Translations under genes and position numbers: made by a program
Notes under the pieces: model-generated
Database searches by the model: none
Told to the model about the DNA's origin: nothing
Seen by the model: the letters and a program-made list of their open reading frames with translations, nothing else
Shown here: positions 23,753 through 31,352 of the stretch, in pieces
Position numbering within the stretch: position 1 is the first letter of the stretch
Layout: every line of letters starts with the position of its first letter
Origin: Mustelus asterias
Lineage: Eukaryota
DNA: 64,000 nt
Assembly (NCBI RefSeq): GCF_964213995.1
Contig: NW_027590198.1
Span: forward strand, 62,001 to 126,000
Direction: 5' to 3'

Positions 23753-24078
23753 TACTGGCATCGCCAGCGAAGCCCACATCCATTGAATCAATAACAATAA
23801 ATAATCTATTCGAAACCAAGTCGAGCACGCCACCCACAACTGTCGATCACCTGCTGAAATTCTGGATTCTCGCTGCCGGGAGTTTCGACTGAAAATTCAC
23901 AGCTCAGTTCCCCATTTAAATACTGGAGTTTCATTTTAAACTGTGGGCGTGGCTGAATTCACCGATGTTCGGGTCTGAAAGACTTCAGTGCAGCTCTGAG
24001 AGCCAGTCTCCCAGAGCAGTCCAGCTCTGTAGCCTCAGCTCCCTGGCATATAAACCGTCAGCTCCAGACAGCAGAACA

Positions 24079-24550
24079 ATGGGAATCCTTCTTGTTTTCA
24101 CCCTGTGTGCCTGTTTACCCTGATGAGTACCGATCAAACTAACCCACATTGCGTGGATTGAATATAAAGCTGCCTCGTGTCCATCTCAATTACAGACACT
24201 GTCTCGGATTTTAGCCCCTTTGTTTGGTTCGGCTCTGATGGTCCATTAAACTCTCTGTGTTTAATTTCCAGGATCTTTCAATCTGCCAGTGACACAGAGC
24301 CTGGCAGCGTTGACCAGGAAGGAGTGTCAGTCTCTTACCATCACCTGTGTTTTCTGTGAAGTTCATGATTTAGAAAATGGTCAATTTTTCAGACAAATCC
24401 AGACCGGGACGGAGCAGGAGCGGATCTCCAGCGGAGGGAGATTTATTGTATTGGCGAATAAAGCAGAAAAGACATTTTCACTGGAAATTCGGGATGTGAG
24501 AGTTGAAGACAGTGCCACCGATTACTGTAAAGTTCAGCACTGGTACTACT
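24079..24550 (+). pseudogene. NAR-TCR (IgNAR-like) V segment; leader 24079-24121, V exon 24272-24550
   Basis: LPVTQSLAALTRKECQSLTITCVF...FFRQ...QERISSGGRFIVLANKAEKTFSLEIRDVRVEDSATDYCK. The truncated CDR2 region and ERISxGGR...NKxxKxFSL are typical of vNAR, and there is an extra FR1 Cys (RKEC). Leader donor is disrupted (t|gatgagt) and the spliced junction would read TGA. Confidence 0.85.
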
Positions 24551-24590
24551 CACATAGGACACCGCACTGGGAGAGAGATCGACAAAACCC
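24551..24590 (+). other. Degenerate V RSS (23/24 spacer)
   Basis: CACATAG + 24 nt + ACAAAACCC. Confidence 0.7.
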
Positions 24591-24924
24591 TCAGGACAAT
24601 CAAAACAGTAATTCCCAGCAATTCCCATGTTCGGTAACTTGACTTGTCGGGTTGATGTTATTCCCAGTTCAATCTAGTTTAATTTCATTTTAATTTCCAC
24701 CTATCAGTTATAATTCTTCCAGGTTTTTCGCCATTAATAAGAATCTTGCATCTCTGCTCCTGTTCCTGGGAAATTTTACCAGGAACTCAGAGAGTCACAA
24801 GGAAAAGTTTGGTCCAATGAGGTTTTTTTTAAACATCCAATGTTCATTATTGATTCAAATCCCCTGAATAATCGAGAAACACTGATTGCTCGGTAATGGC
24901 TGCTCGGCAGTTTGAGGTGTCAGT

Positions 24925-25015
24925 CATTCTTGTGCTGGGCTGACTGAGAGCGCTGACACTGTGGGGAGAATGGAGATTGCAGATGGGTCTGGGATGGTGG
25001 TGACTATCACAACCG
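24925..25015 (+). other. NAR-TCR-type J segment (coding 24964-25015) with 5' 23-RSS
   Basis: CATTCTTGT + 23 nt + CACTGTG, then ...ADGSGMVVTITT (degenerate xGxGT motif) and a phase-1 donor GTAAGT at 25016. Confidence 0.82.
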
Positions 25016-25337
25016 GTAAGTGACTCCTAATCCCATTATGTTGCAGCCTGTTTAGGTTAGTGTTCACCGTCAGTTTAAATTCGTTATCAGCATCACTTCA
25101 ATTCTCTGCTTCTAAAGCAGGGTGTTTTCCAGTGGAAGATTTTCAACTGCAGATTTAGACCTGGGAGCAGATTAAGAAACCGAAGAGTCTCACAACTCGA
25201 AGAGTCAGGCTATGAGACCAGATTGAAGCAATGTGAGACCCCGAAGGACAGGTATCCCACAGGGAGGGAGGTTCAGTTTACCCAATCTGGACTATTATTG
25301 GTTTAAGGAACAGTAAAACGTCTCCCAACGCTAGATT

Positions 25338-26452: not shown

Positions 26453-28982
26453 CTATAGTAATAGAGATGTGGAGGAAGAAATTGCTAAGCAGATTATGGA
26501 TATGTGTGGGGGTCACAGGGTAGTTATCATGGGGGACTTTAACTTTCCAAATATTGATTGGAGCCTTTGTAGGTCAAATAGTTCGGATGGGGCAGTTTTT
26601 GTGCAGTGTGCGCAGGAGGGTTTCCTGACACAATATGTGGATAGGCCGACAAGAGGTGAGGCCACATTGGATTTGGGACTGGGAAATGAATCGGGCCAAG
26701 TGTTAGATTTGGTTGTGGGAGAGCACTTTGGAGATAGTGACCACAATTCGGTGTCTTTTGTTATTGCAATGGAGAGGGATATGGCCGTACGGCAGGGCAA
26801 GGTTTACAATTGGGGGAGAGGTAATTATGATGCGATTAGGTAAGAATTAGGGGGCATAAGTTGGGAACAGAAACTGTCAGAGAAAGGAACTAATGAAAAG
26901 TGGAACTTTTTCAAGGAACAAATACTGGATGTCCTTGATAGGTATGTTCCTGTCAGGCAGGGAGGAAATGGCCGAGTGAGGGAACCATGGTTCACGAAAG
27001 AGGTGGAATGTCTTGTGAAAAGGAAGAGGGAAGCTTATGTAGGGATGAGGAAACAACGTTCAGATGCCTCGATTGAGGGTTACAAGTTAGCAAGGAATGA
27101 GCTGAAAAAGGGGCTTGGGAGAGCTAGGAGGGGACACGAGAAGCCCTTGGCGGGTCGGATCAAGGAAAACCCCAAGGCTTTTTACTCTTATGTGAGGAAT
27201 AAAAGAATGACCAGTGTGAGGTTAGGGCCGGTCAAGGACAGTAGTGGGAACTTGTGTATGGAGTCAGTAGAGATAGGCGAGGTGATGAATGAATACTTTT
27301 CTTCAGTGTTCACCAAGGAGAGGGGCCATGTTTTTGAGGAAGAGAAGGTGTTACATGCTAATAGGCTGGAGGAAATAGATGTTCGGAGGGAGGATGTCCT
27401 GGCAGTTTTGAATAAACTGAAGGTCGATAAGTCCCCTGGGCCTGATGAAATGTATCCTAGGATTCTTTGGGAGGCAAGGGATGGGATTGCAGAGTCTTTG
27501 GCTTTGATCTTTGAGTCCTCGCTGTCCACGGGGATGGTGCCAGAAGACTGGAGAATGGCGAATGTTGTTCCTCTGTTTAAGAAAGGGAATAGAAATGACC
27601 CTGGTAATTATAGACCGGTTAGTCTTACTTCGGTGGTTGGTAAATTGATGGAAAAGATCCTTAGAGATGGGATTTACGACCATTTAGAAAGATGTGGATT
27701 AATCCGAGATAGTCAGCACGGATTCGTGAAGGGCAAGTCGTGCCTCACAAATTTGATAGAATTTTTTGAGGGGGCAACTAAGTGTGTTGATGAAGGTAGG
27801 GCAGTTGATGTCATATACATGGATTTTAGTAAGGCGTTTGATAAGGTCCCCCATGGTCGGCTTATGATGAAAGTGAGGAGGTGTGGGATAGAGGGAAAGT
27901 TGGCCGATTGGATAGGTAACTGGCTGTCTGATCGAAGACAGAGGGTGGTGGTCGATGGAAAATATTCAGATTGGAGGCAGGTTGCTAGCGGAGTGCCGCA
28001 GGGTCAGTGCTTGGTCCTCTGCTCTTTGTGAGTTTTATTAATGACTTAGAGGAGGGGGCTGAAGGGTGGATCAGTAAATTTGCTGATGACACCAAGATTG
28101 GTGGAGTAGTGGATGAGGTGGAGGGCTGTTGTAGGCTGCAAAGAGAAATAGATAGGATGCAAAGCTGGGCTGAAAAATGGCAAATGGAGTTTAACCCTAA
28201 TAAATGTGAGGTGATTCATTTTGGTAGGACTAATTTAAATGTGGATTACAGGGTCAAATGTAGGGTTGTGAAGACTGCGGAGGAACAGAGAGATCTTGGG
28301 GTTCATATCCACAGATCTCTAAAGGTTGCCACTCAAGTGGATAGAGCTGTGAAGAAGGCCTATAGTGTGTTAGCTTTTATTATCAGGGGGTTGGAGTTTA
28401 AGAGCCGTGCGGTTATGCTGCAACTGTACGGACCTTGGTGAGACCACATTTGGAATATTGTGTGCAGTTCTGGTCACCTCACTATAAGAAGGATGTGGAA
28501 GCGCTGGAAAGAGTGCAGAGGAGATTTACCAGGATGCTGCCTGGTTTGGAGTGTCGGTCTTATGAGGAAAGGTTGAGGGAGCTAGGGCTGTTCTTTCTGT
28601 AGCGGAGGAGGCTGAGGGGAGACTTAACAGAGGTTTATAAAATGATGAAGGGGATAGATAGAGTGAACGTTCAAAGACTATTTCCTCGGGTGAATGGAGC
28701 TATTACAAGGGGGCATAACTATAGGGTTCGTAGTGGGAGATACAGGAAGGATATCAGAGGTAGGTTCTTTACGCAGTGAGTGGTTGGGGTGTGGAATGGA
28801 CTGCCTGCTGTGATAGTGGAGTCAGACACTTTAGGAACAATTAAGCGGTTATTGGATAGGCACATGGAGCACACCAGGATGATAGGGAATGGGATAGCTT
28901 GATCTTGGTTTCAGATAAAGCTCGGCACAACATCGTGGGCCGAAGGGCCTGTTCTGTGCTGTACTGTTCTATGTTCTATGTT
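26453..28982 (+). mobile_element. Young 5'-truncated CR1 LINE with 7-bp TSD AAGAGCT
   Basis: Nearly continuous ORF2 (MGDFNFPNIDW, KSPGPD, NYRPVSLTS, YMDFSKAFDKV, KFADDTK), gttctat-repeat tail, AAGAGCT at 26446-26452 and 28983-28989. Confidence 0.95.
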
Positions 28983-31005
28983 AAGAGCTAATTTTATAGT
29001 TGTCGGCGACATTTCATGCGCAATCAGTGACTAAAAATAATTATATCCTGTCGGATTTTTATTTCCTTCCTATAAACAATTATTTTGGCAGAATTCCAAA
29101 ACGTTAGAATTGAATTCTCTTCCACATATTGATCGCTGATGGTGGAAAAATCTGTTTGCATTATGTTTTTTGTCGATTTCAAAAACATGCGATTGTGCTC
29201 ACTGAAGCACAATGAATCCCTCAAGAATTGGGCTGTGTCGAGGCTGAGGGTGCTGAACCGTTCCATGGATTTTATTTTTGAGTACTAATGGAATTAATGG
29301 ATTTGGAAATAGGACGCACAGTTAGCATTAAGGTAGATGATCAGATCTGAACATTCCTGAATTGTACAGCGGGTCCCCAAGGTGGATTGGTCTACCATGT
29401 TTCTATTTCTCATGTATCTTATTATCAGCATGAATTTCTTACACTCCAGAGAATATAAATAATCAATCATGTGTATGGATATCGAAAGTTTGCAAAAGCT
29501 TTGACTTTCGCTCTCGAAGACCCGTAAGGCATGAAAAACGGCATTGAAACACCGAACATTATATTGTAGTTTCAAGGAGTTCCATGTGCAGAAACTGGTC
29601 CTTCGGTGGGAGAACTGTTTCTTTCTTTAAATCATTCGTGTGACATGGCGTCGCTGGTTGGCCATCATTTATTGTGCATCCCTGGTCGCCCTTCAAATCA
29701 ATGGCTGGCTGGGCCATTTTTAAGGGCAGTTGAGAGTCAATCACATTGCTGTGGCACTTTCTAAACATCGGAAATGGTTTCACGGTCAGCAGCAGATACT
29801 TAACTTCAGATTTTTAAAATTGAAGTCAAATTCCACCAACTGCCGAGGCAGGATTCGAACCAGGTTCCCCAGAAGAAGTAGATATTTATATATGGAATAT
29901 GAAATGTCTATCAGGAGAGATAGAAACATTCGGGTATATTTACACGGAGACACATCAGAATGTGAAACTCGCTCTTTGGAGAAACGGCGTGATGAATTTA
30001 TGGAACAGCTTGGGAGTGAGGAATAAAAAGACACACAGCTCAGGATGTAAATGGTTATTTCCGGTTCGAGAGGTGAAGGGGCGGACGAGGACAATCTTCG
30101 ACCAGCTGAACCGAGTGGCCCATTCGTGTTAAGTGGAAAGTGTAGAATGTTCACTCAGAGACTATTGTGTTCAGAAAGAACAGGGAACAATCAGCCAATG
30201 GACTAAAAGGATTGAAATTCTCACATACCCTGAAGGCAGTTCCCAGTGAGTAAAACCACTGCGGAAACTGAACAGACTGAACCAACCGACAACTGAGAGA
30301 AATTAGGGCAAGTTTTCATGACGGTTAGAAACCGGACGGACGGATGCGAGTTTTGAATGACCATTCACTTTCATTGGAGTGAAATTTACAATAGTTTGCT
30401 GCAGTTAAAAATTAGGTAATTGGAGGGAAAGAACTTTCGATGTTTGTAAGGAAAACGCTGAAGGTGTTGGTTCAAATTGCACTTTAAAAATCAGATAGAA
30501 TTCTTGCCTCTATTTATAATGTGCAAATGCAAAAACAAAAGGTTTTTCCAAAAATAATCAGGCTTCGCATGAAGTATGTCAACCAGAGAGAAAGAAATTT
30601 AATATTTTGAGTCCATATGACTCTTCTACAGAATCTGAACAAAAGTCATATGGACTCCAGACGTTAACTCTGTTTCTGTCTTCACAGATGCTGCCAGACC
30701 TGCTGAGTTTCTGCAGCAGATTCCGTTTCTATATGCTGATTGAAATATAAATTAAAGTAAATTTCATCTTAACTGTTAAGAAACTGCATGAATATTTGAA
30801 GGTCGGAGATTTTCAGTGCAATGCGGAAAGAACAGACTGCGGGATAAAATAGTAACTCCTTCGTCTGTCAATGCGGGTAATATATACTGAATGTTCTCTT
30901 TATTTGTTGTAACATTCAATGATTCTATGTCCAGGAGAATGAATGAATGTTGACTGAGGTTCCTCATATTTAAACATATATCTGTTTTCTGGTTACCTTT
31001 TGAAG

Positions 31006-31313: not shown

Positions 31314-31352
31314 CACAGTGATACAAACTGATACAAGCCCCGTACGGAAACT
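31314..31352 (+). other. V 23-RSS
   Basis: CACAGTG + 23 nt + ACGGAAACT. Confidence 0.85.

What the first reader, a model, noticed from the sequence alone, without database searches (positions are those of the whole stretch)
24079..25020. NAR-TCR cassette (IgNAR-like V plus private J) embedded among TCR alpha/delta V genes
Seen: a vNAR-like V with an extra FR1 Cys and Phe in place of the FR2 Trp, an RSS, and 370 bp later a J with an Ig-type 23-RSS and phase-1 donor. Known: cartilaginous fish make doubly rearranging NAR-TCR chains, in which an N-terminal NAR V(D)J exon splices onto a leaderless supporting V-delta. Inference: this is a decayed copy of such a cassette (leader donor broken, heptamer CACATAG, J motif DGSGM).
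Basis: partly seen in the sequence, partly recalled or inferred. Interest (0 to 1): 0.72.

Follow-up and report, generated by a model that had tools for sequence, protein, structure and literature searches.

The report
Dead pre-joined shark T-cell receptor cassette
This is a broken copy of a shark T-cell receptor gene piece (NAR-TCR) from a subfamily whose V and D segments were likely fused in inherited DNA, a shortcut known from shark antibody genes, while intact sister copies elsewhere in the genome are likely still in use.

Summary
Real NAR-TCR V and J; this copy is a pseudogene. The V has the a-b loop Cys, lacks the FR2 Trp and falls with shark and ray two-V proteins, sister to IgNAR. The homologous signal is a decayed 12-RSS at 24563-24590 facing the J 23-RSS, with no D between. 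The 334-bp spacer matches D-J intervals of split V-D-J cassettes, not V-D intervals, so V and D were likely joined in the germline. Of 49 distinct cassette sequences, 25 share this join and 16 are split. Intact joined sisters show purifying selection (dN/dS 0.25-0.38); the window lineage looks neutral (about 1.1). A roughly 9-kb deletion at 30334 removed this copy's supporting V-delta and its intact facing partner. No expression evidence was obtained. The scan noted the VD join before, on other DNA of this genome (e1-9536028, e1-9535974). The primary NAR-TCR papers were not held, so novelty in print is unconfirmed.

The parts
24049..24054 (+). TATA-like box upstream of the leader
   Evidence: sequence; a TATAAA or TACAAA box at this place in the paralogs printed; function not tested
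24079..24123 (+). Leader exon; donor destroyed by a 1-nt insertion plus C>T, giving in-frame TGA at 24121-24123
   Evidence: all 8 type A copies whose leader could be read share CCCTGATGAGT against CCCCGTGAGT in intact copies
24272..24550 (+). NAR-TCR V exon, open frame; a-b loop Cys 24325, no FR2 Trp, private Cys 24355, YYC>DYC
24551..24562 (+).
24563..24590 (+). Decayed 12-RSS (CGCACTG, 12 bp, ACAAAACCC), homologous to the D 3' RSS; CAC lost
24591..24924 (.). Spacer homologous to the D-J interval of split cassettes
   Evidence: local scores 49-82 against 11 D-J intervals, 17-21 against 11 V-D intervals, shuffle maximum 28; BLAST E to 9e-14
24925..24963 (-). J 23-RSS (CACAGTG, 23 bp, ACAAGAATG)
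24964..25021 (+). Private NAR-TCR J (GRMEIADGSGMVVTITT) with phase-1 donor GTAAGT at 25016
26453..28982 (+). 2.5-kb LINE-like insertion, absent from sisters L023-L025, flanked by a 7-bp duplication AAGAGCT (family not tested)
30334..30335 (.). Breakpoint of a deletion of about 9 kb (C153 equivalent 378833-387814) that removed both supporting V-delta exons and the intact facing cassette
   Evidence: same deleted form in C110 and C122
31014..31352 (+). Conventional TCR alpha/delta V with RSS at 31314; normally lies beyond the facing cassette; not a supporting V (no CDR1 Cys)

Best explanation
This is a pseudogene copy of a shark NAR-TCR N-terminal cassette from a subfamily whose V and D were likely fused in the germline, probably by RAG, leaving V(D)-12RSS facing 23RSS-J. 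SHOWN: family identity, the D-less layout, D-J homology of the spacer, the shared junction, the lesions in this copy and the deletion of its supporting V. INFERRED for intact sisters (types B and C): a developing T cell makes one 12/23 join to finish the NAR domain, so its CDR3 has one variable junction instead of two. That exon splices in phase 1 to a leaderless supporting V-delta, which rearranges separately to D-delta, J-delta and C-delta, with a putative disulfide from the a-b loop Cys to the CDR1 Cys. INFERRED history of this copy: old VD join; duplication into a convergent pair; death of one member (type A: leader donor, heptamer CAC); amplification of the pair; then, in this lineage, a LINE-like insertion and a 9-kb deletion that left only the dead V-J. 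This copy most likely makes no protein.
For: Tree: NAR-like V plus IgNAR 99/97, apart from TCR V; NAR-TCR-like set 81/93. Hallmarks as in PMC1845163 passages. The same genome holds the ancestral state, V22-12D12-23J, a supporting V and then 12D23, three J and C (C71:12.22-12.27 Mb). The spacer test separates D-J from V-D with no overlap, and the young joins behave as positive controls (L057 matches D-J only; L037 and L056 match V-D only). A junction pattern has 31 exact genomic matches and 0 for the reversed control. Spacers of joined subgroups differ by 0.20-0.36 substitutions per site, too much for a somatic clone. dN/dS: B against C 0.25, 0.32, 0.38; A against C 1.06, 1.09. Type B: leader intact in 7 of 8, supporting V open with CDR1 Cys in 8 of 8, one with Cys23>Trp. 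Contigs of run X1 bridge the V-junction-RSS for type A and type B. Precedent: shark VD-joined Ig genes and RAG-like germ-cell joins (PMC2193156).
Against: The first four junction bases (CACA) equal the start of a V heptamer, so a non-RAG deletion is not excluded for the old join. One origin of the joined set is not proven: 81/92, an open fork, with four unjoined V genes inside it. dN/dS rests on 7-27 changes per pair; A against B gives 0.36-0.44, not 1; gene conversion could bias it. The D remnant is only 8-12 nt. Copy counts are inflated by probable haplotype or duplicate contigs: only 3 of 31 junction matches are on the large scaffold C71. Runs X1-X4 are one study and may be the assembled animal. 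Joined cassettes checked by coordinates have no constant hit within 60 kb, so their use would need long-range rearrangement, which was not shown.
Confidence: 0.8

Rival explanations
1. Ordinary (non-RAG) deletion fused V to the 3' end of D, running from inside the V heptamer to inside D; the outcome is the same one-step V-J cassette but no germ-cell RAG is involved.
For: The junction starts CACA like a V heptamer, and the V-RSS spacer (ATGGG) and D (TTGGG) share TGGG. The locus is rich in ordinary deletions and inversions.
Against: Both ends fall within a few bases of the two RAG cut sites, and the D 3' RSS is kept exactly. Other joins in the family look like coding joints: L037 lost both RSS with about 3 nt trimmed each side; L056 has a possible P nucleotide.
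Confidence: 0.12
2. The joined cassettes are somatic rearrangements from lymphocytes captured in the assembly.
For: Many copies sit on unplaced contigs. Single-copy joins L057, L037, L056, L053 and the L068 inversion are near-identical to split relatives and could be somatic.
Against: The window's junction type occurs 31 times, including 3 on scaffold C71, in subgroups 20-36% diverged in the spacer, with shared later lesions. One clone cannot give that.
Confidence: 0.03
3. The whole VD-joined subfamily is dead debris; the apparent conservation of types B and C reflects recent duplication or gene conversion.
For: All 10 type A sequences and some type C (L052, L079) are broken; no constant exon nearby; no transcript seen.
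Against: dN/dS 0.25-0.38 between B and C over dS 0.22-0.27, like split cassettes (0.41-0.43); intact leader, CACAGTG 12-RSS, J donor and supporting V with RSS in type B.
Confidence: 0.15
4. The V is an IgNAR V or a non-rearranging Ig-like domain.
For: Top PDB hits are VNARs.
Against: True IgNAR clusters (L077, L078: Trp kept, no a-b Cys, several D, C1 exons) form a separate 100/98 branch at about 42% identity; no IgNAR C within C166:2001-156000; sisters carry RSS, J and supporting V.
Confidence: 0.01

Closest known systems
NAR-TCR (doubly rearranging TCR-delta of cartilaginous fish; Criscitiello 2006, not held; features from PMC1845163 passages)
   Same: IgNAR-related V with leader, a-b loop Cys, no WYRK Trp; private J; in sisters a leaderless-type supporting V-delta with CDR1 Cys; lies among TCR alpha/delta V genes.
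   Different: No free D: V carries a 12-RSS and would join J in one step. This copy is dead and has lost its supporting V.
Germline-joined shark Ig genes (VD-J, VD-DJ, VDJ IgM clusters; joined NS4 light chains; PMC5192425 passages, PMC2193156 abstract and discussion part 1)
   Same: Partial join inherited, split and joined genes coexist, several independent events, RSS excised.
   Different: Here it is a T-cell receptor, not an antibody; expression and timing not shown.
[quoted passage not shown]
   Same: Three-domain TCR-delta derivative with a pre-joined V.
   Different: In TCR-mu the supporting V is fully joined, probably by retrotransposition. Here the antigen-binding V is partly joined and keeps its leader intron and an RSS.
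Channel catfish germline-rearranged TCR alpha/beta (PMC6170632, abstract only)
   Same: A report of rearranged TCR sequences in germline DNA.
   Different: Full VDJ copies detected by PCR and ascribed to transposition; not in-place partial joins of a NAR cassette.

Membership tests
NAR-TCR | V related to IgNAR V, not TCR V | tested here: met
   no nurse-shark NAR-TCR reference sequence was in the tree
NAR-TCR | Cys in the a-b loop | tested here: met
   KECQSL, Cys at 24325; feature from PMC1845163
NAR-TCR | No Trp in the WYRK motif | tested here: met
   GQFFRQ
NAR-TCR | Own leader peptide | tested here: met
   leader exon present but donor broken in this copy
NAR-TCR | Private V-D-J with 12/23-compatible RSS | tested here: inconclusive
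   J and RSS present, free D absent (VD joined); split form in 16 of 49 paralog sequences
NAR-TCR | Downstream supporting V-delta with CDR1 Cys | tested here: not met
   absent from this copy by deletion; present 4.5 kb downstream in 95% identical sisters L023-L025, so this copy is a truncated derivative of a member
NAR-TCR | Supporting V rearranges to TCR-delta D, J, C | tested here: inconclusive
   12D23, three J and a TCR C follow a split paralog; the TM exon matches alpha and delta equally; not shown for joined cassettes
NAR-TCR | Expressed as a doubly rearranged chain with an interdomain disulfide | not testable with these tools
   no run on record as RNA was listed
IgNAR | WYRK Trp, several D, IgNAR C exons downstream | tested here: not met
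Germline-joined antigen receptor gene | Intervening DNA and inner RSS pair removed, outer RSS kept | tested here: met
   V-D interval absent, D 3' 12-RSS and D-J interval kept; 4 nt of possible heptamer remain
Germline-joined antigen receptor gene | Present in non-lymphoid or germ-cell DNA of several animals | tested here: inconclusive
   diverged multicopy junction implies inheritance; runs laid are from one study with tissue not on record

The most novel reading that the evidence does not exclude
RAG has acted repeatedly in the shark germline on the TCR-delta locus. One old VD join founded a selected, amplified subfamily of one-step NAR-TCR cassettes. Further independent VD, DJ and supporting-V-to-D-delta joins exist, in a genome with many separate NAR-TCR-delta clusters. 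Sharks would then have a partly hard-wired, narrow-repertoire single-domain T-cell receptor, the T-cell counterpart of their germline-joined antibodies.
Probability: 0.45. Interest if true: 0.72.

Novelty: new variant of a known kind. Interest (0 to 1): 0.45.

Why it matters
[quoted passage not shown] A partly joined, apparently selected NAR-TCR subfamily would extend germ-cell V(D)J joining from shark antibodies to T-cell receptors. Split and joined versions lie side by side, so mechanism, age and expression timing can be tested. The window copy itself is only a fossil of this; the intact type B and C copies are the objects to study.

Tried and rejected
CACATAG with a 24-bp spacer as the V RSS: rejected. 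A decayed free D in the spacer: no 12-RSS pair there and the interval is D-J type. The 31.0-kb V as the supporting V: rejected; 34-37% identity against 65-80% for true supporting V, no CDR1 Cys, and it normally lies beyond the facing cassette. IgNAR or TCR constant exons near the window: none in C166:2001-156000, and none of 19 TCR C hits is on C166; the rest of the 773-kb contig was not searched for IgNAR C. Expression: no RNA holder listed; laying contigs of four runs showed no V-J joints, which says nothing on expression. Named nurse-shark NAR-TCR sequences did not appear. The TM exon could not tell alpha from delta. Rows dropped: 3 of 54 sequences lacked a Cys anchor (L069, L074, L080) and 2 were IgNAR; L034r and L036f had too little upstream DNA and were left out of the tree and leader count. 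Papers not held: Criscitiello 2006, Ott 2021, one recalled PubMed id, Criscitiello 2010. Searches listed no paper describing a germline-joined NAR-TCR; the one held supplement of PMC3964593 had no NAR-TCR hit, and its unseen supplementary note may bear on this. Scan look-ups near the window and by sequence were empty.

Full report
Observation. The leader, V exon, J, J 23-RSS and phase-1 donor are at the stated place. The V (92 aa) hits VNAR structures first (E 2e-14). It has Cys in the a-b loop and Phe where VNARs have Trp, the two NAR-TCR V marks given in PMC1845163 (passages). Neighbouring V genes tested match TCR alpha/delta chains. The proposed heptamer CACATAG is not the homologous RSS (see below), and the DG of the J motif is normal for the family.

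Family. The genome gives 79 matches, about 52 of them near full length. Database relatives are two-V proteins (NAR-like V, J, second V with CDR1 Cys) labelled from sharks, sawshark, sawfish, skate and ray. Those labelled Mustelus asterias include letter-for-letter matches to G000 copies (P0001 and L007) and are not independent. In a 38-row protein tree the window V sits among 21 NAR-TCR-like V domains (81/93). These join two IgNAR cluster V genes at 99/97, apart from supporting V and TCR V. No nurse-shark reference was available, so the label rests on hallmarks and architecture. One split paralog shows the whole system: V22-12D12-23J, supporting V with 23-RSS, then 12D23, three J and a TCR constant gene 47 kb on.

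The real layout. I fetched 60 ten-kb stretches and read RSS between V and J. Of 54 distinct sequences, 3 lacked an anchor and 2 were IgNAR. The other 49 divide into 25 VD-J (10 type A, like the window; 8 type B; 7 type C), 16 split V-D-J, 2 V-DJ, 1 separate VD-J, 1 inversion, and 4 with a V RSS but no D or J within 4 kb. In types B and C the V runs on for 12 nt and ends at CACAGTG or CACAATG, 12 bp, ACAAATAC. The window's equivalent is CGCACTG-12-ACAAAACCC at 24563-24590. The 334 bp between the two RSS align to all 11 D-J intervals tested (scores 49-82) and to none of 11 V-D intervals (17-21; shuffle maximum 28). The younger joins act as controls and give the expected opposite patterns. So the V-D interval was removed and the D 3' RSS kept. 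A junction pattern matches 31 places exactly and its reversed control none. The subgroups differ by 0.20-0.36 per site in the spacer, so the join is old and inherited (inference). Contigs of run X1 bridge both type A and type B junctions, but all four runs are one study and may be the assembled animal.

RAG or plain deletion. Both breakpoints lie within a few bases of RAG cut sites, which fits a coding joint with N bases. However, the first four junction bases read CACA, so a deletion from inside the V heptamer is not excluded. L037 and L056 look like clean coding joints. Lee et al. 2000 describe RAG-like joins in shark germ cells and note germline VD Ig genes (abstract and discussion part 1 of 2). 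The joined set needs one change on the DNA tree, but the branch is 81/92 and includes four unjoined V genes.

State of this copy. The leader donor is lost, with an in-frame stop, in all 8 type A copies that could be read; 7 of 8 type B keep it. The heptamer has lost CAC. dN/dS is about 1.1 for A against C, 0.25-0.38 for B against C, and 0.36-0.44 for A against B, on small counts. Elsewhere type A faces type B as a convergent pair with two supporting V genes between them. The window follows such a pair at 95-96% identity to 30334, apart from a 2.5-kb insertion with a 7-bp duplication. It then jumps to DNA that lies beyond the type B promoter, a loss of about 9 kb. C110 and C122 carry the same deleted form (99.8% and 99.5%); they may be haplotypes. 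The V at 31.0 kb could accept the J in phase but is a conventional V. The copy is therefore a dead V-J remnant.

How the subfamily likely works (inferred). Intact sisters need one 12/23 join for the NAR domain and a second rearrangement of the supporting V to D-delta-J-delta. The fixed HWYYxHG core would narrow CDR3 diversity. They have no nearby constant gene by coordinates, so they would act like distant V genes, by deletion or inversion. No transcript evidence was obtained.

Comparison and novelty. NAR-TCR is known; partial germline joins are common in shark Ig (PMC5192425 passages). [quoted passage not shown] Seven literature searches listed no germline-joined NAR-TCR, but the primary papers were not held. 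Other papers seen as passages only: PMC12227049 (plus section 6), PMC6795676, PMC5931798, PMC3149040, PMC3457774, PMC3964593 (66, supplement search 70). The scan's earlier notes e1-9536028 and e1-9535974 reached the same VD-join reading on other pieces of this genome. I had formed it (note), and those notes are not independent support.

Verdict. A real but dead copy of a known receptor cassette, belonging to a likely germline-VD-joined variant. New variant of a known kind; interest 0.45.

Noticed in passing
L060 (C96), L063 (C119), L067 (C436), supporting V ends: Three cassettes with different NAR V share one supporting-V junction (AGCACA TCTGGGAC) followed by a D-delta-type 23-RSS, and lie only 16-23 kb from a divergent (82-84%) TCR constant gene. 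This is likely a second inherited join, supporting V to D-delta.
   Followed up: partly
L053 (C850:30000-60000): Supporting V joined to D-delta trimmed by 3 nt, with about 19 kb missing relative to the C71:12.22 Mb cluster; single copy, could be somatic.
   Followed up: partly
G000, 19 places on 17 contigs (3 on C71): Many TCR constant copies of 82-100% identity; by coordinates 15 of 19 have a NAR-TCR cassette 16-58 kb upstream on the same strand. This suggests repeated NAR-TCR-delta clusters rather than one translocon; haplotype inflation not resolved.
   Followed up: partly
L037 (C173), L056 (C90), L057 (C110): Young independent joins: two V-DJ and one VD-J, with trimmed ends or possible P nucleotides; germline or somatic undecided.
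   Followed up: partly
L068 (C110:114496-114768 and downstream): The 785-bp block from V-RSS to J-RSS is inverted exactly at the heptamers; V abuts the J signal (hybrid-joint-like) and the J itself is missing beyond.
   Followed up: partly
L077, L078 (C71:735 kb, 1001 kb): Two IgNAR clusters with V, several D and J, and C1-type exons after L077, on the same scaffold as the NAR-TCR cassettes.
   Followed up: partly
L054, L061, L064, L076: NAR-type V genes with a 22-RSS but no D or J within 4 kb; three lost the a-b loop Cys (KEYQ). They might rearrange directly like ordinary V genes.
   Followed up: no
type B and L039/L040 supporting V: Extra FR1 Cys (QTCAA) in the supporting V of these VD-joined cassettes.
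   Followed up: no
window 31314-31352: One heptamer with nonamer-like sequences at both 12 and 23 spacing after a conventional V; its leader donor looks absent.
   Followed up: no
window 5.3, 10.2, 12.0, 14.6, 32.7, 35.5, 37.3, 47.6, 49.1, 52.2 kb: Ten further TCR-type V genes or relics in both orientations, several broken; no J or C found in the window.
   Followed up: no
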